Source: a virus
Taxonomy: Duplodnaviria > Heunggongvirae > Uroviricota > Caudoviricetes
Reading direction: 5' to 3' (one strand)
Virus record (IMG/VR): IMGVR_UViG_3300009594_000001
DNA length: 64,000 bases
Positions 5,375 through 63,798 of this stretch are shown piece by piece. The position numbers and the translations under genes were made by a program. Numbering within the stretch: the first letter of the stretch is position 1; the number at the start of each line of letters is the position of its first letter. Below the pieces are notes generated by a model. The model searched no databases. It worked only from the letters and a program-made list of their open reading frames with translations, and was not told the origin of the DNA.

Positions 5375-6078
5375 ATGGCTAGCGACTCAGCAGTGGAGCG
5401 GTCTACATCCGATCCTGTTGCTTGTCTTTGGAACAACTATGAATTAACCATCAACATGCTAGAGTTCGCACGGAAGGTAAAGCCGTCGATTTTCTATCAA
5501 GTCTCAACCGATGAAGTCTACGGGGAGGCTCTCCCCGGCCAACCCAGCAATCCTTATGTGGCAAGTAAGGCCGTTCAAGAAGCTGTTGCTATATCTTACT
5601 GGCGTAGCTTTGACGTGCCTGTGGTTTTGACAAATACCATGAACAATGTCGGAGAAATGCAAGACTCAGAGAAGTTCTTGCCTAAGAAGAAGAGATGCCG
5701 ATCTATGGCGACAATGAGCAGAGTATCGGCACTAGGTATTATCTACATGCAAAGAACCACGCAGATGCCTTTGTGTTCCTCTCTAAAGTTCTTGTAGCAA
5801 AGTATTCCGAGGGAGCAAAACGACCAGATCGCTACAATGTGTGTGGCGATGTGGAGCTTAACAATCTAGAAATGGCTAGGTTGGTAGCCGAGATAATGAA
5901 AAAGCCCCTGCACTATCGTTTGATTCTATCTGAGTCGGCCAGAAAGGGCTACGATAAGCGATATGCACTAGACGGAGAGAAGATGAGGAAAATGGGGTGG
6001 ACGCCGCCCATTCCGTTCAGGGATAGTATCGAGCAGATCGTCAAGTGGACTTTAGCCAATCCTCACTGGCTGGTTTGA
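5375..6078 (+). pseudogene. dTDP-glucose 4,6-dehydratase / NAD-dependent epimerase remnant
   Basis: SDR motifs NxxxTxNLLEFARK, STDEVYG and PYVASKA are present. The N-terminal Rossmann segment (~100 aa) is missing. A frameshift near 5700 splits it into ORFs 5375..5797 and 5695..6078 (IYGDNEQ...DAFVF). Confidence 0.65.
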
Positions 6079-6117: not shown

Positions 6118-6543
6118 ATGAAGAAAGATGAAAGAGGAAAGGAGATGAAACATTGGTTTTTTAGCGACCCCCATTTCGGCCACGGCAACGGACGCATCTC
6201 TTTGTTGATGCCCTACTCGGTTGTCCAGAAAATCCGCTCTCAATACGGCAGGGATGGCAAGGTCATCCACAGGAAGGAACTGTGCAATGCAGAGGATATT
6301 CTCATCCAAATGCACCACGTTCGCAAACTTGCCGATCTGAGAAAACCGGGGCGAGGACCGAAGGAAGAGTGGCAGAAGATCATGGCGGCTCGTAAGCGAA
6401 AGATGCTGGCTGTGAGAAGTGCCATGTCAAAATCCACACCGGGAGATACGACGGACCTTCCTTGCATGGTCCACTGGAGAGCCGGGGGCAGTGAAAATTG
6501 CACGCCCGGTTCGGAGAGGGTAGCTGGAAAAGGTTCGTTGTAA
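6118..6543 (+). other. metallophosphoesterase N-terminal fragment (motif I DPHFGH) in a different frame from the rest of the domain
   Basis: FSDPHFGHGNG matches the calcineurin-like phosphoesterase motif I; the downstream ORF carries motifs II and III in another frame. Confidence 0.4.
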
Positions 6544-7034
6544 CACGGAACCTCGCTGGCTACCTACTCTACTGTCGTCGCACGAAGTACATGACGCCGA
6601 ATGAGATTCGGCTTCTAGATGAGGGTGCGAATTTCCATGTCAGTCGTGAGAGCGTCTGGCGTATGAATGATGCCATTATTGGTAACATCAACGCTTTGGT
6701 CCAGCCTGACGACGTTTTCTGGTGCTTGGGGGATTTCTGTTTTGTAGGAGGCAAGGATTACTACAGAGAGTCAGCCATCTATCGCAGTCGGATCAAATGT
6801 GCAACGATGCACATGGTCTGGGGAAACCACGATACGTCCAGCAAGATCGCCTCGTTGTTCAATACCAGTCATAAGATGGAAATGATTGCCATCAACCCGG
6901 AGAGCGGTCGTTACTACATCGATGAGGAGGTAATCAGGCCGTTCGGACTAGACGAGATCATTAAGATCATGCAGGCCAGACCGGGCTTCTGGATGGACTA
7001 CCACGGCAAACGAGGAAATCGTGACGAAGAGTGA
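6498..7034 (+). CDS. metallophosphoesterase domain protein (possibly disrupted)
   Basis: GDFCFVGG (GDxxDRG-like) and GNHD motifs. Motif I lies in the upstream ORF in another frame. Confidence 0.55.
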   Translation: MHARFGEGSWKRFVVTRNLAGYLLYCRRTKYMTPNEIRLLDEGANFHVSRESVWRMNDAIIGNINALVQPDDVFWCLGDFCFVGGKDYYRESAIYRSRIKCATMHMVWGNHDTSSKIASLFNTSHKMEMIAINPESGRYYIDEEVIRPFGLDEIIKIMQARPGFWMDYHGKRGNRDEE

Positions 7035-10291: not shown

Positions 10292-10320
10292 TTGATTTTT
10301 TCACCGAACTACACTAATAT
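10292..10320 (+). promoter_or_regulatory. sigma-70-like promoter TTGATT-17-TAATAT
   Basis: Near-consensus -35/-10 with 17-nt spacer upstream of the Ro60-like gene; strong RBS aaagaaggat follows. Confidence 0.55.
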
Positions 10321-10356
10321 ACCTTCCTAACACATCCTAGAAAAAGAAGGATCGCC

Positions 10357-12282
10357 ATGTCCAAGAAGCTAGGTATGGGGAAGGGCCGTCATCACGAGGC
10401 CGTTACCCACGAGAAGGTCTACAGTGAGACTGTAGCCCACAAGCATGTTCCGGGCCGTGCGTACACCCACGACGACCCGACCGTGAAGCTCATCACCATG
10501 ATCGGTGGTGGGTTCTTCAACGAACCAAAGTATTACGACACCAACCGTCCGACTGTAGACTTCTACCGTGAACTGCGGGAGAAGGGCTGCATTTCGTCCG
10601 TCATCACGGACGCAATGGGTCTGTCCGAGCAGGCTCGTGAAGTCATTGAGACAGCACACAAGGTCGCTCAGGGTCCGAACCCGGAAGACCTACTCGTGAT
10701 CGCTGCCTGGGCACGAGACACCAAGAAGGGTCTCAAGCTGCGGTACACGCCGCAGATCATGCTCGCCCTGGCTGCGGCCAACGAGAAGACTAAGCCGTTC
10801 GTTCCTGTATACTCCACGGCTATCATCCAGCGTGCGGACGAAATCCGTAGTGTGTTCGCTGCGTTCCGTCATCTGTTCCACACGAAGGACACCGGCACTG
10901 GTCTGTACAAGGGCACGATCCCGCACTCTCTCCGTAAGGCTCTGGCTCTTGCCTTTGCCGAGGAGGGACTGTACGGCCTCATCAAGTACAACACCGACGA
11001 CCGCCCGACGTTCGGCGATGTACTGCTGATGCTTCGTGGCAGCGACATCGGGAAGTATCTGGAGAAGCGAATCGGCAAGAGCCGCCAGCACTGGCCGGTC
11101 AGCAAGTCCATGTTCGAGTACCTTGTCAACGGCAAGGTCGGCGAGGATGCTCCGAAGATGTTGAAGCTGCGTGAACAGTTCTTCAAGCTGAAGAAGGTCG
11201 AGGAAGTTACACCGAAACTCCTAGAGGGTGCCGGTTTGACCTGGGAAAACGTTATCTCTCATTTCGGCTCCACCAAAGAAGCCTGGGAGATGTGTATTCC
11301 GCTCATGGCGGAAATGGCCCTGGTCCGCAACCTCCGTAACTTCGAGAAGGTCAGTATCAGCAAGGATGCGTGGGATAAGGTACACGCCAAGTGTACTTCG
11401 ATCATGGACACCGAGCAGCTTCCGTTCCGCTTCTTCTCCGCTGAGAAGCAGGTTGGCAGCACGAATGCCAAGAGCGTCACGGACGCTATGCTGGACAACG
11501 CCTGCATGAACGTGCCGGACCTTCCGGGTGTGACTGTCATTTTCACCGACAACTCTGGCTCTGCTACCGGCTGTGCCGTTAGCGGTAAGAGCAAGATGCG
11601 TGTCGCTGACGCTGGCAACACCCTGGGTGCGATCATCGCCAAGCGGTTTGGCCGTAGGGCCATGATGGGTGTCTTCGGAGACTGCCTGATCTGGGTGCCG
11701 TTCAGCCCAAGCGACTCCTGCATGGCAATCAAGAAGTACATCGACCAGTGTGCCCAGAGCGGCGACCGTGGCAAGCTGAAGGCTCTTACCGTGATGAGCG
11801 GTAAGTACGATATCCTCACCGGGTCTAGCGGTCGCTACGGCGGCGGCGTCGGTGGTGGTACGGAGACGGGTCTGTGGTGCGGTATCCATGACCTTACCGA
11901 GAGGAAGGTCCATGTAGACCGTATCATCATCTGCTCCGACTTCTGCTGCTACACCAAGGGCGATGCTGTGAACTGTGGCCACGATATGACCCGTTGCTTC
12001 GGCGAGGGTGGTGACAAGGCCACGATTCAGAGCATGATCGAGAAGTACCGGAAGAAGGTCAACCCGAACTGCTGGGTCCACAGTATTGACCTACAGGGCT
12101 ATGGTCAGGCCCAGATCAAGTCGGGTTCCAAGAAGGCCCAGTTACTCAGCGGTTGGAGCGAGCAGGTGTTCACTCTGATCCGTGCAGTCGAACTCGGCGA
12201 CGAGCAGGTACAGCAGGTTCAGGGTGAGCCGGTCGAAGTTCCGACCATCGAATTGCTACGCAAGATGTACAAGCGGTCGTAG
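10357..12282 (+). CDS. rsr: Ro60-like protein (TROVE helical domain plus vWA domain)
   Basis: N-terminal helical region with Ro60-like motifs IGGGFFNEPKYY and QIMLALAAA. C-terminal vWA MIDAS motif VIFTDNSGSATG with downstream Thr and Asp (IIICSDF). 641 aa. Confidence 0.55.
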   Translation: MSKKLGMGKGRHHEAVTHEKVYSETVAHKHVPGRAYTHDDPTVKLITMIGGGFFNEPKYYDTNRPTVDFYRELREKGCISSVITDAMGLSEQAREVIETAHKVAQGPNPEDLLVIAAWARDTKKGLKLRYTPQIMLALAAANEKTKPFVPVYSTAIIQRADEIRSVFAAFRHLFHTKDTGTGLYKGTIPHSLRKALALAFAEEGLYGLIKYNTDDRPTFGDVLLMLRGSDIGKYLEKRIGKSRQHWPVSKSMFEYLVNGKVGEDAPKMLKLREQFFKLKKVEEVTPKLLEGAGLTWENVISHFGSTKEAWEMCIPLMAEMALVRNLRNFEKVSISKDAWDKVHAKCTSIMDTEQLPFRFFSAEKQVGSTNAKSVTDAMLDNACMNVPDLPGVTVIFTDNSGSATGCAVSGKSKMRVADAGNTLGAIIAKRFGRRAMMGVFGDCLIWVPFSPSDSCMAIKKYIDQCAQSGDRGKLKALTVMSGKYDILTGSSGRYGGGVGGGTETGLWCGIHDLTERKVHVDRIIICSDFCCYTKGDAVNCGHDMTRCFGEGGDKATIQSMIEKYRKKVNPNCWVHSIDLQGYGQAQIKSGSKKAQLLSGWSEQVFTLIRAVELGDEQVQQVQGEPVEVPTIELLRKMYKRS

Positions 12283-12313
12283 TTCATCCCGAAAGGGACC
12301 GATACGACCCGAA

Positions 12314-12344
12314 CGCCCAGCCCGCAAGGGCTGGGCGTTTTCTT
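12314..12344 (+). terminator. rho-independent terminator
   Basis: gcccagccc-gcaa-gggctgggc followed by a T-run. Confidence 0.7.
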
Positions 12345-12363: not shown

Positions 12364-12669
12364 TTGCATTACAATGGACCCATGAAACGGTACGGGCGGT
12401 TCCCCTTGGAAGACGTGCTGAAGCACATCGGAAAAACTCACGCCAAGTGTGAAACCAGGGTCGGCGTGGTCTTTTCGGCCTACTCCTTCCCAGGTCATCA
12501 GGTGAAACTAGATTGGATTAAGTCGGATGACTTGAATGGATACGAAGACAACTTTGGCAACTGGTACAGATGGGAGGAACATGGCATGGAACGGTGGTTG
12601 TGTCCGGCTTTGTTCAAGTATTTCATGGAAGCACCGAAGCAATTATACGTGAGCTTGGTCAAACCATGA
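12364..12669 (+). CDS. hypothetical protein (101 aa)
   Basis: ORF. Confidence 0.4.
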   Translation: MHYNGPMKRYGRFPLEDVLKHIGKTHAKCETRVGVVFSAYSFPGHQVKLDWIKSDDLNGYEDNFGNWYRWEEHGMERWLCPALFKYFMEAPKQLYVSLVKP

Positions 12670-13051
12670 TCGCTGAGTGTGTACCAAGTTGTTTGTCCGA
12701 CATGCCAGGAAGAGGTCATCGTCCGTGACTCTCTAGATACGGCGGCGGGGCGGTATTGTCCGTCATGCAAGAACAAACTGCCAGGACAACATTTCGTAGC
12801 AAGGGAATGACTTTGTAAAAGAGCCGTTCCTTGTTTTTCATTCGATTGTGATGATTGTGGGCTGGAGAACGTAAGTTTCGAGAAACCGGAAAAATGCGTT
12901 CACTGCGGGGCTACTCTCTGTAGTTCGGGTTGTGTAGATACTTGTTCCTAGCTCGCACGTAAACGTATTTGTAGACCGATGGTGCGTCAGCGGTGCTTCC
13001 TTGCCAGACATCGACGTGATGCGGGTTGAGGCCCAATCGCTTCGGGTCTAC

Positions 13052-13440: not shown

Positions 13441-13469
13441 TTGACACTTGAAGGCGAGGATGCTATCAT
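13441..13469 (+). promoter_or_regulatory. sigma-70-like promoter TTGACA-17-TATCAT
   Basis: Consensus -35, 17-nt spacer, good -10; precedes a structured leader. Confidence 0.55.
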
Positions 13470-13763
13470 AACTGTCGTTGTGGGAAGGAATGAGGATCAG
13501 GCCACATGTGATTTGGCGATCCTCAGCCTGATCCAATTTCTCCCACAACGCTGGCTGGTAGCTTAGGGTAAAGCACTTCAGGAAGCCGCAAGGTGGACTG
13601 ATGGGATGTCAGGTTCAATTTCCTGGCCCAGCCGCTAGCGGGAACGGGTCGAGATTCTATAGTTACAAAGAAACGGCGACTAAATAGAAGATCAGCAATT
13701 TCGAGTTTTCACACTAAAATGGCGTCCCATTGACTCGTTCCCGTTTCCTAGAACAAGGAGTGC

Positions 13764-15441: not shown

Positions 15442-17419
15442 TTTTCGTCGTGTAGTCAAATCCAAGGCCGAGCCTCAAACGCTATCACTGCCCGTCAAAA
15501 AAGAGCATGTCGGCGATCTACTCGCAACGCTCACCCCTCTCGGCCCAATCAAGCTCCTTGAACCACCTTCCTACGAGCCTGACAACGACCAGCACTCGTT
15601 GGCGTTGAACCCCGCCGAAATCTATACCGATATGGCGGTCAAGCTGTCCGGTGCCAAGGTCCGGCTCATCAGGCTAGACGGTCAGAACATAGAGGGTCGT
15701 TTGGCCGGTCTTCATAGTTCTGAGTCTGTGGTTAACAATGAGATAGTCAAGACCAACTCAATCGTCGTTATCGATAGCGGCATATCGATTTTTACCCCTC
15801 TCGACAAGATAGCAAAACTGGTCTTCCTCGATGATGAAGTGAAGGCCGAGATCGCAAAGGCCCTGGAACGCAACTATCAAAAGATCAAGCCAGGGTCTAC
15901 TTTCGTGACCCTCAAGGTTCAGACCATCAACAAAGCAGAGGACGGCGTTCTGCAATACGCTCTCCCAGCAGCGGCTTGGAAGATCAGCTACCGCCTCCGT
16001 GATCCAGGCACCGGCAAGCTCACACTCGAAGGTCTGGCTATCGTGGACAATAATACTGATGAGGACTGGAATGACTTTGCTCTCTCGGTTGTGACCGGCG
16101 ATCCGATCACCTTCAGTACCGATTTGGCAGCAGTCAAGACACCACACCGTCAGCAAGTCAACTTCGTTGCCGACCAAGCCCAGGGAGCAGTTGTGGTCGG
16201 TCGTGAATTTGCTTCTTCACATTCTCATTCAAGACGTGCGATGACGAAAAGTGCAATGGCGTTCGCTGCCTGTGCAGCCCCCGCTGGCGGTGGTTTGGAG
16301 AGATCGGCAGACTATGAAGCAGACTATGAAGCAGAAAAGCTTGTTGGCGATGTGAACTACGCTTCGCTTCAATCCTTCAATCAATCAGCATTCGAGGCCA
16401 ATGCTGAGATCACCGAGGTAGGTGATTACTCTGTGTTCTCTGCCAAAGACCCTGTGACCATCGCCTCGAAGAAGTCTGCTCTGGTTCCAGTGTTTTCTCT
16501 ACAACTGAATGATGCCAAGAAGGTGCTTCACTATAAGAGGGCAAACGATGCCGAAAGAGCTTTCCGCTCAATTCTGTTCACGAACGAGAGCGAGTTCACC
16601 CTTGGCCGTGGACCTTGTACTGTAGTCGAGAAAAGCATCCACCAGGGCGAGGCTGACTTCCCTGCCAGCAAACCCGGCGAGAAGTCAGTAGTGCCCTACG
16701 CTCGTGATACAACTGTACGCTTCCTGCATCAGCAGGGTAGTATGAATCAGAAGCGTTCGTCTATCAGCACCAGTGACGGCGTGCTGAATATCAAAGTTGT
16801 CAACACTGTAGACGTAACCTATCGTCTTATCAACACCAGGGAAGAAGCCTTCCTCGTCAATTTGGACCACGATTTTGTTCTAGGCACCGAGGCCAAGGCA
16901 ACTGCTGTACTAGAACGGACTGATGACTCGAATGAAGAGTGGGAAAACACTTTCGCCGAGGAAGTATTGAAGACCGGACGTCGCTTTGAGTTTACGTTGC
17001 CTCCAAAGGGCAACCTGACGTTCACTGTGAAGGAGAATCAGGTCGTCGCCAACGAAATCAAGATCGGCAGCTATAGCACCCTTGTCAGTTATCTCAGCGG
17101 TACGAAGCTATTGGATAATCCAAGTGTGAAGAAGTGTGCTGAGATACAAGAAAAAATTGACGAGGCCGGAAAGAAGGGCGAGGCTCTGGAAACCGAACAC
17201 GAGAAAATCGACGCCCGCCAGGAACGTCTACGCAAGAATCTCACTGCTGGAGGCCACGACGAATCCACTGCGGAGTGGAAGAGTGAGTTGGCTAAGAATG
17301 AGAAGCGTTTGCAGGTTATCGAGGACAAAGAGCAACCTGAGTTGCAGAAGGAAATCGATAAGCTGCAAAAGGCTCTTAAAAAGGCTTTGAAGGAAGTCGA
17401 AGCTAGCTTGACGGAATAA
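15401..17419 (+). CDS. large hypothetical protein with C-terminal coiled coil
   Basis: 673 aa from ATG 15401 (track start 15299). C-terminal heptad-rich stretch EIQEKIDEAGKKGEALETEHEKIDARQERLRKNL... Confidence 0.5.
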   Translation: MQNIVTIFSNGIADFRRVVKSKAEPQTLSLPVKKEHVGDLLATLTPLGPIKLLEPPSYEPDNDQHSLALNPAEIYTDMAVKLSGAKVRLIRLDGQNIEGRLAGLHSSESVVNNEIVKTNSIVVIDSGISIFTPLDKIAKLVFLDDEVKAEIAKALERNYQKIKPGSTFVTLKVQTINKAEDGVLQYALPAAAWKISYRLRDPGTGKLTLEGLAIVDNNTDEDWNDFALSVVTGDPITFSTDLAAVKTPHRQQVNFVADQAQGAVVVGREFASSHSHSRRAMTKSAMAFAACAAPAGGGLERSADYEADYEAEKLVGDVNYASLQSFNQSAFEANAEITEVGDYSVFSAKDPVTIASKKSALVPVFSLQLNDAKKVLHYKRANDAERAFRSILFTNESEFTLGRGPCTVVEKSIHQGEADFPASKPGEKSVVPYARDTTVRFLHQQGSMNQKRSSISTSDGVLNIKVVNTVDVTYRLINTREEAFLVNLDHDFVLGTEAKATAVLERTDDSNEEWENTFAEEVLKTGRRFEFTLPPKGNLTFTVKENQVVANEIKIGSYSTLVSYLSGTKLLDNPSVKKCAEIQEKIDEAGKKGEALETEHEKIDARQERLRKNLTAGGHDESTAEWKSELAKNEKRLQVIEDKEQPELQKEIDKLQKALKKALKEVEASLTE

Positions 17420-22165: not shown

Positions 22166-22258
22166 GCAGGTAGCTTAGTAGGCCGCAAGGTAGCTTGGAG
22201 TAGAGCGTCAGCCTAATAAGTTGAAGGTTGCTGGTGCGAATCCAGTCCTGCCCACTTA
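22166..22258 (+). ncRNA. tRNA-like element (93 nt, type and anticodon unresolved)
   Basis: Acceptor-like ggcaggt/cctgcc pairing, T-arm ctgg-tgcgaat-ccag, long D region; no clean anticodon arm. Confidence 0.35.
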
Positions 22259-23254: not shown

Positions 23255-23339
23255 TCCTGGGTAGCCTAAAGGTAAGGCAGCAGTCTGTTAAACTGCCGTG
23301 GCGAAAGTCCGAATGTTGGTTCGAGTCCAACCCCAGGAG
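23255..23339 (+). tRNA. type-II-like tRNA with anticodon GTT (Tyr-like scaffold, long variable arm)
   Basis: Acceptor tcctggg/cccagga; D gcct/aggc; AC gcagt-ctGTTaa-actgc; 18-nt variable region; T gttgg-ttcgagt-ccaac. Confidence 0.5.
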
Positions 23340-23356
23340 CTTGATAGGTTAGTTCT

Positions 23357-23410: not shown

Positions 23411-23492
23411 GGGGTCGTGGCAGAATGGTTATGCACCCGGCTTTTAACCGGAGCGAGAAATCGCAATGAGGGTTCGATTCCTTCTGGCCCCA
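23411..23492 (+). tRNA. tRNA-Lys(TTT) with a 15-nt variable arm
   Basis: Acceptor ggggtcg/tggcccc; AC ccgg-ctTTTaa-ccgg; variable hairpin gcga-gaaa-tcgc; T gaggg-ttcgatt-ccttc. Confidence 0.5.
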
Positions 23493-23496
23493 CTTT

Positions 23497-24294: not shown

Positions 24295-24317
24295 CTAGAC
24301 AGAATGGTGCAGACACC

Positions 24318-24388
24318 AGTTCCTTCGACCAAGTAGGTCAACATCCTGTTAAGATGTCCATTGTGGGTGTCAAATCCCACAGGAACAA
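24318..24388 (+). tRNA. tRNA-Asn(GTT)-like, atypical 8-nt T-loop
   Basis: AC acatc-ctGTTaa-gatgt; D gacc/ggtc; T gtggg-tgtcaaat-cccac; acceptor agttcct/aggaaca with one mismatch. Confidence 0.4.
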
Positions 24389-24418
24389 CCTGATGTCGAA
24401 TATCTCTTCTGTCTTTAC

Positions 24419-24582: not shown

Positions 24583-25044
24583 ATGAATGCAACGAAACTG
24601 CTGTCCATAGGAAAGACAGCCGAAAGATTGGGAGTGCATGTTGATACTCTCAGGGAATGGGACAAAGACGGCAAACTGACCCCGGTGAAGACCCCCGGCA
24701 ACCATCGCCGCTACCGCATCGAAGACATCGAAGCGTTCTGCGGCAACATGGTTGAGAAGAAGGATGACGCAAAGGCAGTCAGAGTCGCCCAAGAAAAACC
24801 TCAAAATAAATTCAAGGATGTTTTGCATTTTGCCGATGATTACATTATAATACTTTGTCTGACTGTGGATACTCTACGATTTTGGCGGGACAAAGACGTA
24901 TTTGACCTGATTGGCACAATCGGAGGACACAACATTGATGAAGTTTTAGGTGTAATTAGTGAAAAGTCAAGTAAGGTGGACAGAGGACGAGGTAAATCTT
25001 CTCAAAGAACACGGAGCGACAAAACTCCTGCACGAACTGGTTGA
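24583..25044 (+). CDS. tnpA: IS607-family TnpA N-terminal MerR-like HTH segment (reading frame terminates before the catalytic domain)
   Basis: LLSIGKTAERLGVHVDTLREWDKDGKLTPVKTPGNHRRYRIEDIEAF matches the IS607 TnpA N-terminus from memory; it is followed by the intein block A-like CLTVDTLRF. Confidence 0.5.
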   Translation: MNATKLLSIGKTAERLGVHVDTLREWDKDGKLTPVKTPGNHRRYRIEDIEAFCGNMVEKKDDAKAVRVAQEKPQNKFKDVLHFADDYIIILCLTVDTLRFWRDKDVFDLIGTIGGHNIDEVLGVISEKSSKVDRGRGKSSQRTRSDKTPARTG

Positions 25045-25924
25045 GCTACTACCGAGACATACGGCAATGGGTATCTCGATCAAGAGAAAGCGGCTCGGCA
25101 TAGAACTGCCAGATGAATACCTGTCAAGGCAAGGAGCATACGGCAGGTCATTTGTAAATAATGACAACTTGTGTAAGACGGATCACAGCCTCACGCTAAA
25201 CGATCTTGATGATACGACCAAACAGGTTCTTCTTGGCAGCGTCTTAGGCGACGGCAGTATCAAGAAGAATGGAAGCGGTGGGAAGATGAGGGGCAAGTGG
25301 AGTCAAAGGAACTTCATCTTCTACGACATGCACAGAAGTCCACAATTTGACTACACGGACTGGAAGGCATCCAAACTCCAAACATTCTTAGCCAAGTCAA
25401 GCCGCAACGATGAGAAGAACAGGTCAGAGACTTGGACGGTATCGCATCCGATCTTCACCATGTTGCGTGATAAGTTTTATCCGGCGATGACGAAGTGTAA
25501 CAAGTGCATGATCCCCGCCGACATCGTTGAGCAGATGGATGAGTTGGCGTTGTTGGTGTGGTACTTTGATGACGGCTACATCGGTGTGCGTCCTGATGGA
25601 TTTGACACCAAAGGTCATCACAAACGACCGCAACCAAGAATTGCGGCAAAAGGTTGGAACTACGAAGACCTGTGCAGAGCCGCCGAGATACTGAACAAGA
25701 ACTTGGGGTTGCATCTGTACGTTCTTACATTCAAGCACAGGGACGGTGTTGGTAAAGAAGTCAAGATACCAGCAAAAGACAGGGATTACTTGTTTCAGCT
25801 TTGGCAGCAGTTGGCGAAACAACACGGCGTACCTGAGTGTATGATGTACAAACTGAACCTGCACGAATGGAAAGATGTACTTGTGTATAAGCAGCCACGA
25901 ACAGAAGCAGAAGGGCGACCTTGA
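24959..25924 (+). CDS. LAGLIDADG homing endonuclease (double-motif)
   Basis: Two dodecapeptide motifs, LLGSVLGDGSI and LLVWYFDDGYIG. Lies between the HTH and catalytic parts of tnpA, in a third frame. Confidence 0.7.
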   Translation: MKSQVRWTEDEVNLLKEHGATKLLHELVELLPRHTAMGISIKRKRLGIELPDEYLSRQGAYGRSFVNNDNLCKTDHSLTLNDLDDTTKQVLLGSVLGDGSIKKNGSGGKMRGKWSQRNFIFYDMHRSPQFDYTDWKASKLQTFLAKSSRNDEKNRSETWTVSHPIFTMLRDKFYPAMTKCNKCMIPADIVEQMDELALLVWYFDDGYIGVRPDGFDTKGHHKRPQPRIAAKGWNYEDLCRAAEILNKNLGLHLYVLTFKHRDGVGKEVKIPAKDRDYLFQLWQQLAKQHGVPECMMYKLNLHEWKDVLVYKQPRTEAEGRP

Positions 25925-26999
25925 GCGACAAAATGGGCGGGTTCTCGCCTACTGCGTCAAGAAACAGTACCAAGTAGTAAAATCCTACGAGGAAGTCGGC
26001 TCTGGCATGTGCGACACCCGACCAAAACTTCATCAAATCTTCAAGTTGGTTGAAGAGAAGCAGGTGGATAAGGTCATCGTAGAACACAAGGACCGGCTGA
26101 CCCGGTTCAACTTCAACTTTCTGGCAGCGTTCTTCGCCAGTCATGGTGTTGAGGTTGAATGGACAGAGGAAGTGCTTGGGAACAAGCGGTACGAGGACGA
26201 GTTAGTGGAAGACATGCTCACGCTCATGTCCTCGTTCTCAAACAAAATCTACGGCAAACGATCCGCAGAGAACCGCAAGAAGAAAAAGTTAGAGAAGTTG
26301 GCGGCAAAGGAGCAAGGTGAAGGTACAGAGGGGCTTCAAGACGGAGATCAGACCAAGCGACAAGCAAAAGACGCTGCTGCTCAAGAATGCAGGAGCGGCA
26401 CGCTGGGCGTACAACTACGGTCTGAGCCAGAAGAAGATCGCTCTGGAAGCCAAGACGAAGATACCCAACGCCATCGAACTGCACCGTCGCTTGAACGAGT
26501 TGAAGAAGACGGAAATACCGTGGGCTTACGAGTGCAGCAAGTGCAGTTTTCAAGAAGCACTCAGAAACCTCGACAGGGCTTTCAGCAACTTCTGGACAGC
26601 ACGGAAAACCAAGAGACGCATGGGCTTCCCGAAGTTCAAGAGCAAGAAGAACGGCATCGGCGGCTTCCGGCTCACAGGGACGATCATCGTGTCCAGCGAC
26701 CGCATCCAGTTGCCCCGTCTCGGCACGATCCGGCTCAAGGAGAAGAACTACCTGCCGACCGACGCCAAGATACTCAACGCCACGGTAACGGAGAGGGCTG
26801 GCAGGTGGTTCGTGAGCGTACTGGTGGAGATGGAACAGCCGGAATACACCGGCATCAAGGACAAGAAGGACGTGGTGGGCGTGGACTTGGGCATCAAGAC
26901 GCTGGCGACCGTGAGCGACGGCACGGTGTACGAGAACCCGAAACCACTCAAGACCCGATTACGCAAACTACGGCGGCTACAACGAGCAGTCGCCCGTAA
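25875..26999 (+). CDS. tnpA: IS607-family serine recombinase catalytic domain (TnpA C-terminal part; 3' end uncertain)
   Basis: YLCISSHEQKQKGDLERQ (cf. YARVSSxxQ...DLxRQ) and IVEHKDRLTRFNFNFL...GVEVEW. The frame stays open to 26999, overlapping tnpB out of frame; the true stop is probably near 26330. Confidence 0.55.
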   Translation: MYLCISSHEQKQKGDLERQNGRVLAYCVKKQYQVVKSYEEVGSGMCDTRPKLHQIFKLVEEKQVDKVIVEHKDRLTRFNFNFLAAFFASHGVEVEWTEEVLGNKRYEDELVEDMLTLMSSFSNKIYGKRSAENRKKKKLEKLAAKEQGEGTEGLQDGDQTKRQAKDAAAQECRSGTLGVQLRSEPEEDRSGSQDEDTQRHRTAPSLERVEEDGNTVGLRVQQVQFSRSTQKPRQGFQQLLDSTENQETHGLPEVQEQEERHRRLPAHRDDHRVQRPHPVAPSRHDPAQGEELPADRRQDTQRHGNGEGWQVVRERTGGDGTAGIHRHQGQEGRGGRGLGHQDAGDRERRHGVREPETTQDPITQTTAATTSSRP

Positions 27000-43569: not shown

Positions 43570-43642
43570 ACGGATTCTCTGAAATCGTTCGTATAGCCCG
43601 GTTAGTATGCCGGGGCGAAAGCCCGGAGGCGTGGGTTCAAAT
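43570..43642 (+). ncRNA. tRNA-like element with variable-arm hairpin ccggg-gcgaaag-cccgg
   Basis: T-arm gtggg-ttcaaat-cccac; no complementary 5' acceptor found; 8-nt anticodon loop. Confidence 0.25.
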
Positions 43643-43737
43643 CCCACACGTAAGCCAGCTTTACAAGGAGACCATCATGCGTAGTCAAAGGAATGGTAGC
43701 GTCTTCTAGAGCAATTACGCTCTAGGAGAAATGCTAC

Positions 43738-44281: not shown

Positions 44282-44358
44282 GCGGCTATAGTGTTTAACG
44301 GTCTCAGTACGACTGGCTTCCAACCAGTTAGTGGCAGGTTCAAATCTCCCTAGCTGCT
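44282..44358 (+). tRNA. tRNA-Gly(TCC)-like (imperfect T-stem)
   Basis: Acceptor gcggcta/tagctgc; AC actgg-ctTCCaa-ccagt; T-loop ttcaaat with two stem mismatches. Confidence 0.45.
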
Positions 44359-44502: not shown

Positions 44503-44945
44503 ATGAAACTCGACAAGGACTTGCAGGCGAGATGGGATGAGTTGTTCGAGCAATGCCCCATACTCACTTTCAAAGAATGGTATAGTGGTGTACCCACGAG
44601 GAGGTACATGCTGGAACGTGAACAACAGAAGTTGATAGAAGAGCAAGAAAAACGGGACCGCCTTGCAAACAAGAATAATGTTTGCAATTCTACTCTAACA
44701 ACAAACAGAAAGAGGCTGAGTACAACAAGAAGTATAAAGCCGTGTGGTATAAGAAAAACAGACGAAGGCTGAAAGAATGGTTTTGGGAATACAAGAAAAC
44801 GCTGGTGTGTACAGAGTGTGGTGCAGACCATCCAGCGGTGATTGATTTCCACCATCCAGGCAAAAAGGAGGCTGGTATCTCTGAAATGTTGAAGGATGGC
44901 GTTGGCAAAGATACGCTGTTGGCCGAGGTTTAACAATGTAGCAAC
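44503..44945 (+). pseudogene. HNH endonuclease paralog disrupted by a frameshift (~44690) and in-frame TAA (44932)
   Basis: The N-terminal ORF MKLDKD... shifts into frame 0: ...KEWFWEYKKTLVCTECGADHPAVIDFHHPG...LLAEV*QCSNCHRILHYGED. Confidence 0.45.
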
Positions 44946-45319: not shown

Positions 45320-45400
45320 TATCTGGATGTGTCGGGAGTCCGGTTATCCGTCCTGCTTCGGATGCAGGGGCACGTTGGTTCAAATCCAACCACCCAGACT
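45320..45400 (+). ncRNA. tRNA-like element (type-II-like, possible anticodon CTG with C33)
   Basis: T-arm gttgg-ttcaaat-ccaac; acceptor ctggatg/cacccag with one mismatch; AC atccg-tcCTGct-cggat; 10-nt variable region. Confidence 0.3.
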
Positions 45401-45403
45401 CAT

Positions 45404-45477
45404 CGGGGCGTAGCTCAGCTTGGTAGAGCGTCTGGTTTGGGACCAGAAGGCCGCAGGTCCGAATCCTGTCGCCCCGA
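45404..45477 (+). tRNA. tRNA-Pro(TGG)
   Basis: Acceptor cggggcg/cgccccg; D gctc-agcttggtag-agc; AC tctgg-ttTGGga-ccaga; T gcagg-tccgaat-cctgt. Confidence 0.75.
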
Positions 45478-45791
45478 CTGTGGAGTGGTGAAGATAAGGG
45501 ATACTTCAAACGTCACACTCATAATGTGAAACTGTAGGTGCAACTCCTACCCCTACTATCTTGAAGAGGTTGAAGAACCTCAGAAAGAAATGGCGGACAG
45601 AGCAGACTAGAGAACGAAGTTTCGTCTGGGCTACGTGCCCGGTGCCTTGAGTCTCGAAAAATCAGTTGGGATAGATATCGATTACGGTATGTGTTCCAGC
45701 GAGCTTGATCGGTTCATTCGTGAACTCGAAAGAGCAACCACGCCAGGGTAGTTTAACAGAAAGTCCCTTGCCGACTATTTCCTCTACAAAC

Positions 45792-46698: not shown

Positions 46699-46808
46699 CT
46701 GCCAGCAAGGTGCAGGGTAGAGTTACTTCACAGGTTCAATTCTTGTTTTCTCCGCAAGGGGAAAGCTAAAGGTAGCTTCACTCTTCTCGAATATGTCTGC
46801 TGGCAAAT

Positions 46809-48670: not shown

Positions 48671-48673
48671 CTT

Positions 48674-48775
48674 GCGGGATGGTGCAGGATACGGTTCCTT
48701 CGCCAAATGGTATGGCACTAGCTGTCAAAGCTGGAGTTGTGGGTTCAATTCCCACAGGTTCAAATCCCGTATCTG
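48674..48775 (+). ncRNA. ~100-nt tRNA-like region with two T-loop-like motifs
   Basis: 5' gcgggat pairs with 3' atcccgt 100 nt downstream; contains gtggg-ttcaatt-cccac and ggttcaaatcc; no clean cloverleaf. Confidence 0.25.
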
Positions 48776-48803
48776 TTTATTTCTCCCGCTACTTACATAA
48801 GGA

Positions 48804-52693: not shown

Positions 52694-52825
52694 TTGTGGT
52701 CCGAATTGCGACCCTCCACCGACTCCCACGCCTTCTCCTAGCAAATGCTATTCTAGAGTGAAAGTTGGCGGGGTCTCTAGAATCAAAGTATCTAATAGTA
52801 GGAGTCTCAAGATTTGTACATAAGG

Positions 52826-52906
52826 GGCCTTGGTCTAACGGTAAGGCGTCGTGTTAAAGTCACAGTGCCGCACGAAGATGTCGGTTCGATTCCGGCAGGT
52901 TCCATA
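52826..52906 (+). ncRNA. tRNA-like element without a resolvable anticodon arm
   Basis: Acceptor ggggcct/aggttcc (two G-U); D-arm gtctaacggtaag; T gtcgg-ttcgatt-ccggc. Confidence 0.3.
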
Positions 52907-52981: not shown

Positions 52982-55090
52982 ATGTCAGTACCAGAGATGT
53001 TGGAAAGACGGGTGTGGCCCATCGAGAAAGCCCTGCAACGCATCCTTGTTGGGCAGAGGAACGTCATCCGCCGTGTGACTATGGCGTTATTCGCTGTCGG
53101 ACAGCGGGACTTCTATCCAGATGGTACACGATTTTTAGGAACAGGCCACGTTCTATGCGAAGGCGGTGTAGGAACAGGAAAATGTCTTGGTAAAGGCACC
53201 CCCGTCTTGATGTTCGACGGAACTATAATTCCCGTTGAATCCGTTAAGACTGGAGACCTGTTGATGGGACCAGATTCTCTGCCCAGGAAGGTTATTGCTC
53301 TCGGACACGGTTTTGGAGAGCTATATCGGGTGATACCAAAAAAGGGCGATTCGTATGTTGTCAATGACGAGCATATCCTGTCATTTAAGATGACTAGTCG
53401 TGGTCGAAATAGGCAGGGCAATTTTCCACGTTCTGGCGACAATGTTCCTGGCATGATTTATAACATGTCAGTCAAAGAATACTTGGGAAGGTCAGAGCGA
53501 TTCAAGAGTCATGCCAAGGGATATAGAGTTGGCATCGAGTTTGATGAGCGAATTGTGCCACTGGACCCGTATTTTTTTGGCGTGTGGTTGGGAGATGGGA
53601 TCAGTCGCACCGCACAGGTTTGCAATACGGATAACGAAATTATTGCGTACATTCGTAAGATGGCAAACAAGTACAGGCTGCGGTTCAACACTTACACAGC
53701 AAGCGGGAAAGCTCCGATTCACTCGTTGTGGGGGAAAAAATTCCATCCTAATGCGATATTGAGTGCTTTACGTGAAATGAACGTATTGCAAAACAAACAT
53801 GTTCCACAAATATACAAAGCAAATTCACGACGAGTGAGATTGCAAATTTTGGCCGGACTGATGGACACAGATGGCAGTCTGTCGGCTGGTTGCTATGACT
53901 TCGTAAACAAGTCAAAACAACTTGCCGATGATGTGGTTTATTTGGCGAGGTCTCTAGGATTCGCCGCTTATGTCAAACCATGCACCAAGGTTTGCAAAAA
54001 CAACGGTAAAAAGGGTCGATATTACCGAGTATCGATTTCTGGAAATTTATCGGAAGTTCCGGTTCGCATTGCCAAGAAAAAGGCTTCTCTTCGTCGGCAG
54101 AAGAAGAATGTGTTGGTGACTGGAATCAAAGTAGAACCAGAGGGCTATGGAGAATACTTTGGTTTCGAGATTGAGGGACCAGACAGGCTGTTTCTCCTGG
54201 GAGATTTCACGGTCACACACAATACCGTTCTCTGTAAAGCACTTTCTAGGTTGCTGGCTGGCAACTCCAAACGAGTATCGGGAATGCCCGACGCACTTGC
54301 CAGCGATATTACTGGTTGCGAGATCATCTTGCTGACCGGCGATACCAAGACGGTCCAGGGGCCGCTATTCTGCAACGTTATGCTGGCTGACGAGATCAAC
54401 CGTTTCCCGCCCAAAGCCCAAAATGCGTTCATCGAAGCACTGGCTGAAGGCTGTGTCACCATCGCAAATGAAACTATTCGTTTGAAGCAGCCTTTCTTCT
54501 GCCTCGCTACACAGAACCCGACTGAGCAAAAAGGCACGAGTCGTCTACAAGAGGCTCTGTCAGACCGGTTTATGTTCAAACTCGTCATGCGTGAGACTAC
54601 AGAGCAGGAGAAGATTGATATCGCAAAGCGGACACACCACTTCGATGTCACGAACCTGAATCCTGTAATTACGACAGACGAAGTATACGAAGCTAGAGAG
54701 TATTTCTTCAACAATACTCACGTCAGCGATGAGGTACGTCGCTACGCTGCTCGCTTGCTTCGTGCAATCAACCATCCAGCGGAATACAAACTTCTTGAGA
54801 AGGAACGGGCCTTGCTTGCGGGCGATAACATCTTCAAGCAAAAGCCAGCGGTCAACGACCGTGCCATGCTGCATATGGAAGGTGCGGCGATGATGGAGGC
54901 GGTTATGAGTGGGAGGGACTACGTGATCCCCGCCGACGTTGCTGCTGTTGCGGCAGATGCCCTCCGTGCCCGTCTTCTCCTGTCTGAGTCTAGTTTGCAC
55001 CTTCTGGCGGAACTACACCCAGGCAAAACCGAAACCGAGTTGGTGGACTATTTCATAGACGAAACTCTGTCTAGGGTGCGACACACTTGA
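52982..55090 (+). CDS. MoxR-like AAA+ ATPase interrupted by an intein (extein about 355 aa)
   Basis: Walker A GGVGTGK|...|T is split by the intein; the post-intein extein carries Walker B LADEINR and sensor motifs typical of MoxR. Confidence 0.8.
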   Translation: MSVPEMLERRVWPIEKALQRILVGQRNVIRRVTMALFAVGQRDFYPDGTRFLGTGHVLCEGGVGTGKCLGKGTPVLMFDGTIIPVESVKTGDLLMGPDSLPRKVIALGHGFGELYRVIPKKGDSYVVNDEHILSFKMTSRGRNRQGNFPRSGDNVPGMIYNMSVKEYLGRSERFKSHAKGYRVGIEFDERIVPLDPYFFGVWLGDGISRTAQVCNTDNEIIAYIRKMANKYRLRFNTYTASGKAPIHSLWGKKFHPNAILSALREMNVLQNKHVPQIYKANSRRVRLQILAGLMDTDGSLSAGCYDFVNKSKQLADDVVYLARSLGFAAYVKPCTKVCKNNGKKGRYYRVSISGNLSEVPVRIAKKKASLRRQKKNVLVTGIKVEPEGYGEYFGFEIEGPDRLFLLGDFTVTHNTVLCKALSRLLAGNSKRVSGMPDALASDITGCEIILLTGDTKTVQGPLFCNVMLADEINRFPPKAQNAFIEALAEGCVTIANETIRLKQPFFCLATQNPTEQKGTSRLQEALSDRFMFKLVMRETTEQEKIDIAKRTHHFDVTNLNPVITTDEVYEAREYFFNNTHVSDEVRRYAARLLRAINHPAEYKLLEKERALLAGDNIFKQKPAVNDRAMLHMEGAAMMEAVMSGRDYVIPADVAAVAADALRARLLLSESSLHLLAELHPGKTETELVDYFIDETLSRVRHT
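53183..54223 (+). mobile_element. intein with LAGLIDADG homing endonuclease domain (347 aa)
   Basis: Begins with Cys in block A (CLGKGTPVLMFDG); LAGLIDADG motifs FFGVWLGDGIS and ILAGLMDTDGSLS; ends VTHN, followed by the Thr that completes GKT. Confidence 0.8.
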
Positions 55091-63708: not shown

Positions 63709-63798
63709 GCTCCGGTCGGTTAATGGTAAGCCCCACGACTTATAATCGTGTCAGTCCCAGATAAGGACGAAATGTGGGTTCGATTCCCACCCGGAGCA
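63709..63798 (+). tRNA. type-II-like tRNA with anticodon TAT (long variable arm)
   Basis: Acceptor gctccgg/ccggagc; AC cacga-ctTATaa-tcgtg; ~21-nt variable arm with stem gtcc/ggac; T gtggg-ttcgatt-cccac. Confidence 0.5.

What the first reader, a model, noticed from the sequence alone, without database searches (positions are those of the whole stretch)
10292..12344. Ro60-like RNA-binding protein gene (TROVE helical domain fused to a vWA MIDAS domain) with its own consensus promoter and terminator
The 641-aa product has a C-terminal vWA domain with an intact MIDAS (DNSGS...T...D). Its N-terminal helical region carries Ro60-like motifs (IGGGFFNEPKYY vs human FGSEGGTYY; QIMLALAAA vs PMLFALAIC). 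Ro60 orthologs (Rsr) bind Y RNAs and act in RNA quality control. From established knowledge they occur in Deinococcus, Salmonella and a few mycobacteriophages, always with a co-encoded Y RNA. A Ro60 gene on an element that also carries more than 40 tRNAs and tRNA-like RNAs suggests a virus-encoded RNA surveillance or tRNA-like-RNA handling module. This is not a standard phage function.
Basis: partly seen in the sequence, partly recalled or inferred. Interest (0 to 1): 0.7.

Follow-up and report, generated by a model that had tools for sequence, protein, structure and literature searches.

The report
Phage Ro60 gene with Y RNAs
A very large, phage-like element carries a genuine Ro60 RNA-binding ring protein, and I found at least four matching small "Y RNA" genes that standard databases miss, three of them wedged directly between tRNA genes; phage Ro60 is a known kind of system, but this arrangement of its RNAs is unusual.

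Summary
The ORF is real (10357-12282, +, 641 aa) and is a Ro60/Rsr ortholog. Pfam TROVE gives E=9e-19. The AlphaFold model's 13 best PDB matches are all Ro60 structures. The MIDAS residues are invariant in homologs.

Phage Ro60 is not new. tblastn found homologs in 58 phage records, jumbo phages are reported to carry it, and the Thermus phage phiLo Ro60 has been solved.

Rfam finds no Y RNA in the window. The closest cellular homologs (50-58% identity, Planctomycetota MAGs) are flanked by sub-threshold YrlA hits and by shorter RNAs. These share a covarying two-stem module with the motifs GGUGCAG, UUACUUC and AUUUC. A covariance model built only from non-window loci finds four strong members in the window, all on the Ro60 strand:
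- 24296-24414
- 45477-45789
- 46699-46805
- 48671-48791

All four score 45-54 bits (E 1e-13 to 5e-11). A fifth, divergent copy lies at 13477-13548, 1.2 kb downstream of Ro60, with its own promoter. Three of the strong copies sit flush between tRNA genes. One contains ARAGORN's "tRNA-SeC".

Verdict: a new member of a known protein family, partnered with a new variant of Y RNA. The function (RNA surveillance or decay) is inferred, not shown.

The parts
10292..10320 (+). Weak sigma-70-like promoter candidate for the Ro60 gene (TTGATT, 17 nt, TAATAT; 8 of 12 positions)
   Evidence: Read from the sequence. It falls below the scanner's 9-of-12 threshold and is not listed.
10357..12282 (+). Ro60/Rsr ortholog: a TROVE HEAT-repeat ring plus a vWA domain with an intact MIDAS; 641 aa
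12311..12347 (+). Intrinsic terminator of the Ro60 gene
   Evidence: 13-bp stem with 9 G-C pairs, followed by a T-run.
13441..13469 (+). Strong promoter (TTGACA, 17 nt with TG, TATCAT; 11 of 12) driving Y1
   Evidence: Both hexamers are conserved in the related contig L037.
13477..13548 (+). Y1: a divergent Y-like RNA (long bulged hairpin), 1.2 kb downstream of Ro60
   Evidence: Folding z=-4.8. Model scores: R1 14.9 bits, E=0.059, second best in the window; R2 12.8 bits, E=0.24. Its ortholog in L037 scores 23.3 bits, E=6e-5. That ortholog carries the family 5' loop GGUGC and a compensatory stem change.
13553..13634 (+). tRNA-like cloverleaf directly after Y1. It has a GGUUCAAUU T-loop and a D-arm-like hairpin, and a long odd arm in place of the anticodon arm. 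ARAGORN and Rfam do not call it.
   Evidence: Folds. The acceptor stem keeps pairing through changes in L037. No tRNA hit.
24296..24414 (+). Y2: a Y-like RNA with an internal cloverleaf in normal tRNA order (D-like, anticodon-like and T arms). It lies flush between tRNA-Gln and tRNA-Lys.
   Evidence: R2 50.0 bits, E=1.6e-12. Fold. Gaps of 0 and 4 nt to the flanking tRNAs.
45477..45789 (+). Y3: a long Y-like RNA (about 313 nt) with a large insert. It lies flush between tRNA-Pro and tRNA-Val. Its 5' part is the weak Rfam 'tRNA' at 45484-45558.
   Evidence: R2 45.1 bits, E=4.7e-11. Sequence. Gaps of -2 and +2 nt.
46699..46805 (+). Y4: a compact Y-like RNA with three internal hairpins in the YrlA order (T-like, closed stem, D-like). 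It lies flush between two tRNA-Val genes.
   Evidence: R1 28.2 bits, E=7e-6. R2 53.6 bits, E=1.3e-13. Fold. Gaps of -1 and +3 nt.
48671..48791 (+). Y5: a Y-like RNA whose interior (48693-48763) is what ARAGORN calls tRNA-SeC(tca) and Rfam calls tRNA (41 bits)
   Evidence: R2 53.7 bits, E=1.2e-13..

Best explanation
The gene encodes a true Ro60/Rsr ring protein on a 464-kb, huge-phage-like element. It was probably acquired from, or shares ancestry with, the Rsr of Planctomycetota. It works as a ribonucleoprotein with Y-like RNAs encoded on the same element.

At least four, and probably five, Y-like RNAs are present in the window. Each has a conserved closing module: an outer stem, an internal loop (5' side GGUGCAG, 3' side ..AUUUC) and an inner stem. 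I infer this module to be the Ro60 docking site. Each RNA also has a variable apical module, often tRNA-like, which I infer to recruit or mimic a partner.

Y1 has its own promoter next to the Ro60 gene. Y2-Y4 are embedded in the tRNA arrays with 0-4 nt spacing, so the RNase P and 3'-end processing of the neighbouring tRNAs would release them. Y1 is followed by a tRNA-like element that could serve the same purpose.

By analogy with Deinococcus RYPER and phage phiLo, the RNP most likely acts on structured or misfolded RNA during infection. It could tether a host 3'-5' exoribonuclease such as PNPase, or restrain it.

What is shown: protein identity, RNA family membership, covariation and genomic arrangement. 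What is inferred: binding, processing and the target.
For: Protein identity:
- TROVE E=9e-19.
- phiLo Ro60 E=7e-13 by sequence and 1.7e-19 by profile.
- AF2 model pLDDT 81, pTM 0.80.
- The top 13 Foldseek PDB hits are all Ro60/Rsr (E 6e-14 to 6e-9); the next hit has E=0.026.
- MIDAS residues are invariant.

Host-lineage link:
- 11 Planctomycotota MAG loci encode homologs at 50-58% identity.
- In all 7 bacterial loci scanned, Rfam YrlA hits (E 5e-8 to 3e-3) lie directly upstream on the same strand.
- On a 2.8-Mb contig the gene sits beside RtcA and an RNase II/R gene.

RNA family:
- 36 units aligned by MAFFT give 94.8% paired cells against 74.7% in shuffles. 14 of 18 pairs show compensatory changes. 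0 of 500 shuffles reach the observed values, and slid controls give 39-53%.
- Model R1 finds 103 hits in 48 loci, all on the TROVE strand.
- Model R2 was built without any window sequence. It gives window hits of 53.7, 53.6, 50.0 and 45.1 bits; noise is at or below 12.8 bits.
- R2 finds nothing in 682 kb of unrelated viral contigs that were pre-selected for carrying two of the motifs.

Y1:
- Its promoter, hairpin and tRNA-like element are conserved in L037, with compensatory changes.
- The L037 copy scores E=6e-5.

Arrangement:
- Gaps to the flanking tRNAs are -2 to +4 nt.
- The same tRNA-Y juxtaposition occurs in contig L016.
- Arrays of Y-like units lie right after the Ro60 gene in L002 and in the 442-kb contig L052.
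Against: - No expression, binding or processing data exist.
- Y1 itself is only marginal by the models (E=0.06-0.24). It rests on its L037 ortholog and its position.
- Y2-Y5 lie 12-36 kb from the Ro60 gene, outside the 4-kb rule seen in earlier surveys (PMC4201824).
- None of the RNAs reaches the Rfam YrlA threshold. The canonical GNCGAAN0-1G/CGAA motif is only loosely recognisable, as GGA(A/U)GG at the top of the outer stem.
- No PNPase, RtcB or other RNA-repair gene was found among the 41 window ORFs scanned against Pfam. The effector is therefore unknown.
- That the element is a phage is inferred from gene content. The flanks encode PhoH, endonuclease VII, an aaRS, a release factor and IF1, and the window has tRNA arrays. 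No capsid or terminase gene was seen in the parts I read.
Confidence: 0.75

Rival explanations
1. Host-nuclease sequestration or anti-defence. As proposed for Thermus phage phiLo, the Ro60-Y RNPs mainly trap host PNPase or another RNase. This protects phage transcripts and the large tRNA pool, or impairs host crRNA maturation, rather than carrying out quality control.
For: phiLo Ro60 and its Yrl RNAs form ternary complexes with host PNPase and attenuate it (PMC12135203). phiLo Ro60 is the closest solved relative. Many Y paralogs could act as a stoichiometric sponge.
Against: Nothing in the window identifies PNPase as the partner. The apical modules here are tRNA-like rather than the PNPase-binding type. 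In the host lineage the gene sits with RtcA and RNase II/R, which points to repair or decay.
Confidence: 0.3
2. tRNA decoy or tRNA-pool guardian. The tRNA-like domains of Y2, Y4 and Y5 mimic tRNAs. They could absorb host anticodon nucleases or tRNA-modifying enzymes, or bring Ro60 to misfolded phage pre-tRNAs made from the long arrays.
For: Y2 folds into a full cloverleaf with a canonical 7-nt loop CUGUUAA. Y5's interior scores 41 bits as a tRNA. The RNAs are co-located, and probably co-transcribed, with the tRNAs. YrlA is known to be a substrate of tRNA enzymes (PMC4201824).
Against: Purely structural inference. The acceptor-like stems are closed by the Y stem, so there is no free CCA end. 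No anticodon-nuclease or repair gene was found nearby.
Confidence: 0.25
3. Passenger gene. The Ro60 gene is a recent capture from a Planctomycetota host with no dedicated role, and the Y-like elements are decaying relics or mere tRNA-array spacers.
For: The closest named homologs are cellular, at 50-58% identity.
Against: The ligase-Ro60 synteny is kept in relatives at 70% identity (L002, L003), and the downstream region is kept in L037 at 92%. The gene is intact with invariant MIDAS residues. The phage Y units keep stems through compensatory changes and score 45-54 bits. Separate large contigs (L016, L052) also pair a Ro60 gene with Y arrays.
Confidence: 0.05

Closest known systems
Bacterial Rsr with YrlA/YrlB (Salmonella, Mycobacterium smegmatis; Chen et al. 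2014, PMC4201824; Rfam RF02553)
   Same: A Ro60 ring protein with several Y RNAs on the same strand. Each RNA has a closing stem with a conserved loop plus a tRNA-like module; Y4 has the T / closed stem / D order. In the Planctomycotota relatives the RNAs directly flank rsr, and RtcA is adjacent.
   Different: The stem-loop motifs differ: GGUGCAG / UUACUUC / AUUUC instead of GNCGAAN0-1G. No window RNA reaches the Rfam threshold. Y2 and Y5 carry the tRNA-like domain in normal D / anticodon / T order, closed at the acceptor end. Four of the five RNAs lie 12-36 kb from the gene, inside tRNA arrays.
Thermus phage phiLo Ro60 with Yrl1/Yrl2 (Hu et al. 2025, PMC12135203; PDB 9KOP, 9L5Y)
   Same: A phage-encoded Ro60 with phage-encoded Y-like RNAs. 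It is the best sequence and fold match among solved structures.
   Different: Only about 20% identity. The window protein is about 140 aa longer. The phiLo Yrls lie upstream of the gene and carry CGAA. Here there are more RNAs, most have tRNA-like modules, and several are interleaved with tRNAs.
Deinococcus radiodurans Rsr-Y RNA-PNPase (RYPER)
   Same: Same protein fold (2nvo, E=1.8e-10). It provides the general model in which a Y RNA tethers the ring to an exoribonuclease.
   Different: No PNPase-binding module or PNPase gene has been identified here. The effector is unknown.
Ro-like proteins of mycobacteriophages, Streptomyces and Gordonia phages, Bacillus phage G and other jumbo phages
   Same: Same protein family in phages (58 records). 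TROVE is noted in a subset of jumbo phages (PMC7824862).
   Different: All are below 30% identity to the window protein. The window protein belongs to a distinct clade of about 630 aa shared with Planctomycetota. A placement of Y RNAs inside tRNA arrays was not mentioned in the papers I read.

Membership tests
Ro60 / Rsr (TROVE + vWA ring protein) | TROVE (HEAT-repeat) domain detectable by profile | tested here: met
   PF05731 E=9.3e-19, 68 bits against a cutoff of 23. phrog_850 E=1e-23.
Ro60 / Rsr (TROVE + vWA ring protein) | C-terminal vWA domain with MIDAS (DxSxS...T...D) | tested here: met
   D398, S400, S402, T502/T504 and D528 are invariant in 23 homologs. DNSGS aligns to the DVSGS of phiLo Ro60. 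The model shows alternating strands and helices over residues 393-598. Pfam gave no separate VWA hit.
Ro60 / Rsr (TROVE + vWA ring protein) | Overall Ro60 fold over the full length | tested here: met
   AF2 pLDDT 81, pTM 0.80. The top 13 Foldseek hits are all Ro60/Rsr, with target-normalised TM 0.63-0.76 and alignments of 574-641 columns. Ring closure itself was not inspected.
Ro60 / Rsr (TROVE + vWA ring protein) | Co-encoded Y RNA(s) on the same strand | tested here: met
   Four R2 hits at 45-54 bits plus the divergent Y1, all on the + strand.
Ro60 / Rsr (TROVE + vWA ring protein) | Physically binds Y RNA and misfolded RNA ends | not testable with these tools
   Needs EMSA, RIP or structural work.
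YrlA (Rfam RF02553) | Scores at or above the family gathering threshold (69 bits) | tested here: not met
   The only window hit scores 24.9 bits (E=0.56) and spans two adjacent tRNAs, so it is an artefact. Host-lineage RNAs reach only 33-49 bits.
YrlA (Rfam RF02553) | 5' GNCGAAN0-1G / CGAA motif in the closing stem | tested here: inconclusive
   The family has GGA(A/U/C)GGUGCAG at the top of the outer stem. It resembles the motif but does not match it.
YrlA (Rfam RF02553) | Permuted tRNA-like domain (T arm, closed acceptor-like stem, D arm) | tested here: inconclusive
   The Y4 fold fits this order. Y2 and Y5 have D / anticodon-like / T order. Y1 has no internal tRNA-like domain. These are MFE folds only.
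YrlA (Rfam RF02553) | Encoded within about 4 kb of Ro60 on the same strand (PMC4201824) | tested here: inconclusive
   Same strand for all five. Y1 is 1.2 kb away, which meets the rule. Y2-Y5 are 12-36 kb away, which does not.
Planctomycotota-type Y-like RNA (models R1/R2 defined here) | Outer stem, GGUGCAG/AUUUC internal loop and inner stem, supported by covariation; significant score with a model trained on other loci | tested here: met
   Covariation. Window hits have E 1e-13 to 5e-11. The negative control gave 0 hits in 682 kb. Y1 itself is marginal (E=0.24), while its L037 ortholog has E=6e-5.

The most novel reading that the evidence does not exclude
This huge phage, and relatives such as L016, L002 and L052, have built Y RNAs into their tRNA arrays as tRNA-punctuated genes. 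The set includes a previously undescribed Y RNA architecture in which the Ro60-binding stem closes the acceptor end of an otherwise normally ordered tRNA-like cloverleaf.

Under this reading the Ro60-Y RNP is a dedicated guardian or decoy system for the phage's own tRNA pool. It also follows that some 'suppressor' or 'SeC' tRNA calls in huge-phage genomes are actually Y RNA domains.
Probability: 0.35. Interest if true: 0.7.

Novelty: new variant of a known kind. Interest (0 to 1): 0.5.

Why it matters
- Ro60-Y RNA particles are conserved from bacteria to humans, where Ro60 is a major autoantigen, but their function in bacteria and phages is still poorly defined.
- This locus shows that the curated YrlA model misses a whole lineage of Y RNAs, found in Planctomycetota and their likely phages.
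- It shows that a phage can carry five or more Y paralogs, and that they can be placed inside tRNA arrays where tRNA-processing enzymes would release them.
- That gives a concrete, testable link between Ro60 and tRNA biology in a virus.
- It adds a caution for huge-phage annotation. One apparent UGA-reading 'tRNA-SeC' in this window is the inside of a Y RNA, which matters when suppressor tRNAs are used as evidence for stop-codon recoding.

Tried and rejected
- **Rfam scans.** I ran Rfam at gathering and at permissive thresholds on the locus and on the whole window. No Y RNA or YrlA was found. The single YrlA hit (45373-45429, E=0.56) spans the T arm of one tRNA and the D arm of the next, so I rejected it as an artefact.
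- **Near-identical DNA in the phage collection.** None found.
- **TROVE relatives in IMG/VR.** None confirmed.
- **Motif scan of IMG/VR.** The pattern GGTGCAGN{6,9}TTACTTC gave 120 matches. None of the 80 loci tested is a real family member by R2. The matches are chance, and they were useful only as a negative control.
- **GAAG/CUUC pairing idea.** I first thought GA(A/G)G in the 5' loop pairs with C(U/C)UC in the apical region (GAAG/CUUC in L002, GAGG/CCUC in Y1). The bacterial members have GCAG with CUUC, so this is not a family feature. I dropped it.
- **Simple regex-plus-stem scan.** It recovered Y2, Y4 and Y5, but also two minus-strand decoys, against a shuffle mean of 1.4. It is too weak on its own and was superseded by the covariance models.
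- **PHROG 'terminase' hits.** The hits for the ORF at 52982-55090 come from its intein, not from a terminase.
- **RNA-repair or PNPase genes.** Among the 40 other window ORFs scanned against Pfam, none was found.
- **Flanks of the window.** R2 on the 10 kb beyond each end of the window found no further Y-like RNAs.
- **Similarity of Y interiors to window tRNAs.** No convincing similarity to any particular tRNA.
Full report

The ORF runs 10357-12282 on the + strand and encodes 641 aa. An SD-like GAAGGA lies 6 nt upstream of the ATG. A strong intrinsic terminator follows at 12311-12340 plus a T-run.

The claimed 'consensus promoter' is weak. TTGATT, 17 nt, TAATAT at 10292-10320 matches 8 of 12 positions and falls below the scanner's list.

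Pfam gives TROVE at E=9.3e-19. PHROGs gives the 'RNA-binding protein' family phrog_850 at E=1e-23. Among PDB sequences the best match is the Ro60 of Thermus phage phiLo (9KOP/9L5Y): E=7e-13 with the single sequence and 1.7e-19 with a profile. Human Ro60 scores E=7e-4 with the profile.

An AlphaFold2 model built on 23 homologs has pLDDT 81 and pTM 0.80. Its 13 best Foldseek matches in the PDB are all Ro60/Rsr structures: phage phiLo, Xenopus, human and Deinococcus. They align over essentially the full length, with E 6e-14 to 6e-9. The next hit has E=0.026.

The MIDAS residues D398, S400, S402, T502/T504 and D528 are invariant in the homolog alignment. The protein is a Ro60/Rsr ortholog.

**2. 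Where does the window come from, and who are the relatives?**

The window is part of a 463,644-bp metagenomic contig, ENA ERZ27245623 k141_14709.

The window and its flanks encode:
- 43 ARAGORN tRNA calls
- an IF1-like protein
- an NAD-dependent DNA ligase
- sigma factors
- PhoH
- endonuclease VII
- a class I aminoacyl-tRNA synthetase
- a release factor
- homing endonucleases, an intein and a group II intron

. This gene content is typical of huge phages. I saw no capsid or terminase gene in the roughly 85 kb I could read, so 'phage' is an inference.

The protein belongs to a clade of about 630 aa. Close, syntenic relatives (ligase followed by Ro60) are L002/L003 at 70% identity and L037 at 92%. 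Eleven loci from Planctomycotota MAGs (Gemmataceae, Urbifossiella, Gemmata, Thermoguttaceae, Planctomycetaceae) encode homologs at 50-58% identity. Some lie on contigs of 1.8-3.1 Mb. On one of these the gene sits beside RtcA and an RNase II/R gene, which recalls the rsr-rtc association known from Salmonella.

**3. Is there a Y RNA?**

Rfam finds none in the window at any threshold.

In all seven bacterial loci I scanned, Rfam YrlA gives sub-threshold but significant hits (33-49 bits, E 5e-8 to 3e-3). They lie 40-500 nt upstream of the TROVE gene on the same strand. Reading those regions showed that each rsr gene is flanked by several RNAs with a common closing module:
- an outer stem (typically CCGGG paired with CCCGG)
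- a 5' loop GGUGCAG
- an inner stem ending in GGG
- UUACUUC
- a variable apical part, either short or a T / closed stem / D tRNA-like domain
- the inner-stem 3' strand
- a 3' loop ..(N)AUUUC
- the outer-stem 3' strand

Phage-like contigs have the same units, usually with GAUGAAG in place of GGUGCAG. They lie in arrays right after the Ro60 gene: four units plus two mini tRNA-like elements in L002, and at least eight units in the 442-kb contig L052, two of which are also Rfam YrlA hits.

A MAFFT alignment of 36 short units excluded the window and its closest relatives. It gives an RNAalifold structure of 18 pairs, 14 of them with compensatory changes. 94.8% of cells are paired, against 74.7% in column shuffles and 39-53% when partners are slid. 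0 of 500 shuffles reach the observed values.

Model R1, built from this alignment, finds 103 units in 48 loci, every one on the TROVE strand. Model R2 was built from those 103 hits.

**4. What R2 finds in the window** (filters off)

| Unit | Coordinates | Bits | E-value |
|---|---|---|---|
| Y5 | 48671-48791 | 53.7 | 1e-13 |
| Y4 | 46699-46805 | 53.6 | 1e-13 |
| Y2 | 24296-24414 | 50.0 | 2e-12 |
| Y3 | 45477-45789 | 45.1 | 5e-11 |
| Y1 | 13477-13548 | 12.8 | 0.24 |
| best unrelated hit | 16671-16740 (-) | 12.3 | 0.34 |

As a specificity control, I took 682 kb of unrelated IMG/VR contigs selected for carrying GGTGCAG...TTACTTC by chance. R2 gives no hit at E<=0.001 in them. The 10-kb flanks of the window hold no further copies.

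**5. Y1 needs separate treatment**

I first noticed Y1 by eye. The best promoter match in the region (TTGACA, 17 nt with TG, TATCAT at 13441-13469) is followed by a long bulged hairpin with folding z=-4.8. Four nucleotides later comes a cloverleaf with a GGUUCAAUU T-loop that neither ARAGORN nor Rfam calls.

In L037 the promoter hexamers, the hairpin and the cloverleaf are all conserved:
- The inner stem shows an A-U to G-C change.
- The acceptor stem stays paired through changes.
- The 23-nt apical loop is identical.
- The 5' loop reads GGUGCGAGG, which is the family motif.

The L037 copy scores 23.3 bits, E=6e-5, with R2. I therefore regard Y1 as a diverged family member. It lies 1.2 kb downstream of Ro60 on the same strand, and this conclusion carries moderate confidence.

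**6. Anatomy and arrangement**

MFE folds of Y2, Y4 and Y5 reproduce the family module.
- **Y4** has an interior of three hairpins in the YrlA order: T-like, closed stem, D-like.
- **Y2 and Y5** carry cloverleaf-like interiors in the normal tRNA order: D-like, anticodon-like with a 7-nt loop, then T.

In Y2 and Y5 the Y stem therefore closes the acceptor end rather than the anticodon end. This is an arrangement I did not find described in the papers I read.

The interior of Y5 is exactly what ARAGORN reports as tRNA-SeC(tca) at 48693-48763, and what Rfam reports as a 41-bit tRNA. Part of Y3 is a weak Rfam 'tRNA' at 45484-45558.

Y2, Y3 and Y4 are flush with the neighbouring tRNA genes, with gaps of -2 to +4 nt. 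In L016 a tRNA-Met is followed at 0 nt by a Y unit. Y1 is followed at 4 nt by its tRNA-like element.

The simplest reading is that tRNA 5' and 3' processing defines the ends of the Y RNAs. This is an inference from spacing. It is supported by the published observation that a mycobacterial YrlA is an RNase P substrate (PMC4201824).

**7. How it most likely works**

Shown:
- a Ro60 ortholog
- a covarying RNA family that accompanies this Ro60 clade in bacteria and in phage-like contigs
- four strong members and one weak member in the window

Inferred:
- Ro60 docks on the conserved stem-loop module, as in the vertebrate Ro-Y RNA mode and the bacterial GNCGAAN0-1G site (PMC4201824).
- The variable apical modules engage other factors.
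- The particle acts on structured or misfolded RNA during infection. It would do so either by tethering a host exoribonuclease (the Deinococcus RYPER model) or by restraining one (the phiLo model, PMC12135203).

A role centred on the phage's own tRNA pool, or on decoying tRNA-directed host enzymes, fits the tRNA-like modules and their location but is untested. No RNA-repair or PNPase gene was found among the 41 window ORFs scanned.

**8. Comparison with what is known, and novelty**

Phage Ro60 is established:
- 58 phage records contain homologs, all below 30% identity to the window protein.
- YrlA-type RNAs were reported next to Ro60 in 254 bacteria and 22 phages (PMC4201824).
- TROVE proteins are noted in a subset of jumbo phages (PMC7824862).
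- The phiLo protein has a crystal structure and binding data (PMC12135203).

The protein is a new member of a known family.

The RNAs fail the Rfam YrlA threshold and differ in three ways: the motifs of the closing module, the topology in Y2 and Y5, and the placement inside tRNA arrays up to 36 kb from the gene. I file them as a new variant of Y RNA rather than as YrlA members. A literature search for Y RNA, Rsr and Planctomycetes together returned nothing. The supplementary tables of the 2014 survey were not available to me, so the bacterial YrlA-like copies may already have been listed there.

**9. Verdict**

The claim of rarity is overstated. The added value lies in the lineage-specific Y RNA family, its interleaving with tRNAs, and the mis-called tRNA-SeC. 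Interest is moderate (0.5).

Noticed in passing
window 48693-48763: ARAGORN's 'tRNA-SeC (tca)' call, also a 41-bit Rfam tRNA hit, is the interior of Y-like RNA Y5. It has a weak acceptor stem, no free 3' end and G rather than U before the 'anticodon'. It should not be read as a UGA suppressor.
   Followed up: yes
window 13553-13634: A tRNA-like cloverleaf with good T and D arms and an extended odd arm in place of the anticodon arm. No tool calls it. It is conserved in L037, where that arm carries an insertion.
   Followed up: partly
L002 8141-8240 and window 45534-45550: Mini tRNA-like elements share the T-arm GTAGGTGCAACTCCTAC. Two stand between Y units in L002, and the same arm occurs inside the large insert of Y3.
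   Followed up: no
window 44810-44857: A short hairpin carrying GGUGCAG ... GAUUUC. It scores weakly with R1 and R2 (E 0.7-1.1). It may be a minimal or degenerate Y-like unit, or it may be chance.
   Followed up: no
L052 5830-6745 (441,848-bp contig Ga0315284_10000005): A second huge contig with a Ro60 homolog at 40% identity. The gene is followed directly by an array of at least 8 Y-like units. Two of them have tRNA-like domains and are weak Rfam YrlA hits.
   Followed up: partly
L057 4442-5464 and 1700-2569 (2.8-Mb Planctomycetota contig): In the cellular relative, the TROVE gene lies next to a divergently oriented RtcA RNA cyclase and near an RNase II/R gene.
   Followed up: no
window 52982-55090, and on to 60334: A MoxR-type AAA+ ATPase is interrupted by an intein carrying a LAGLIDADG endonuclease. 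It is followed by DUF58 and vWA/BatA-like genes. The PHROG 'terminase' hits for this ORF come from the intein.
   Followed up: partly
window 6118-6572: A group II intron domain (Rfam, 56 bits, 6477-6572) lies next to an AI2M-like HNH ORF (6118-6543). Just upstream is a short epimerase-like ORF (5375-5797). This may be a gene split by an intron.
   Followed up: no
window 24959-26999: A LAGLIDADG endonuclease ORF and a serine recombinase/resolvase ORF sit inside the tRNA-rich region.
   Followed up: no
window 12364-12669 and 62776-63237: Two DUF6717 paralogs. One lies immediately downstream of the Ro60 terminator. A 43-aa ORF with CxxC...CxxC (12679-12810) follows the first.
   Followed up: no
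window 23255-23340, 23411-23493, 52824-52904, 63709-63798: Unusually long tRNA calls (81-90 nt), including tRNA-Phe(aaa) and tRNA-Ile(tat). They may contain introns or be atypical tRNAs.
   Followed up: no
window 22184-22254, 43586-43650, 44282-44358: Weak Rfam tRNA hits (33-42 bits) that ARAGORN does not call. They may be further tRNA-like elements. They are not Y-like by model R2.
   Followed up: no
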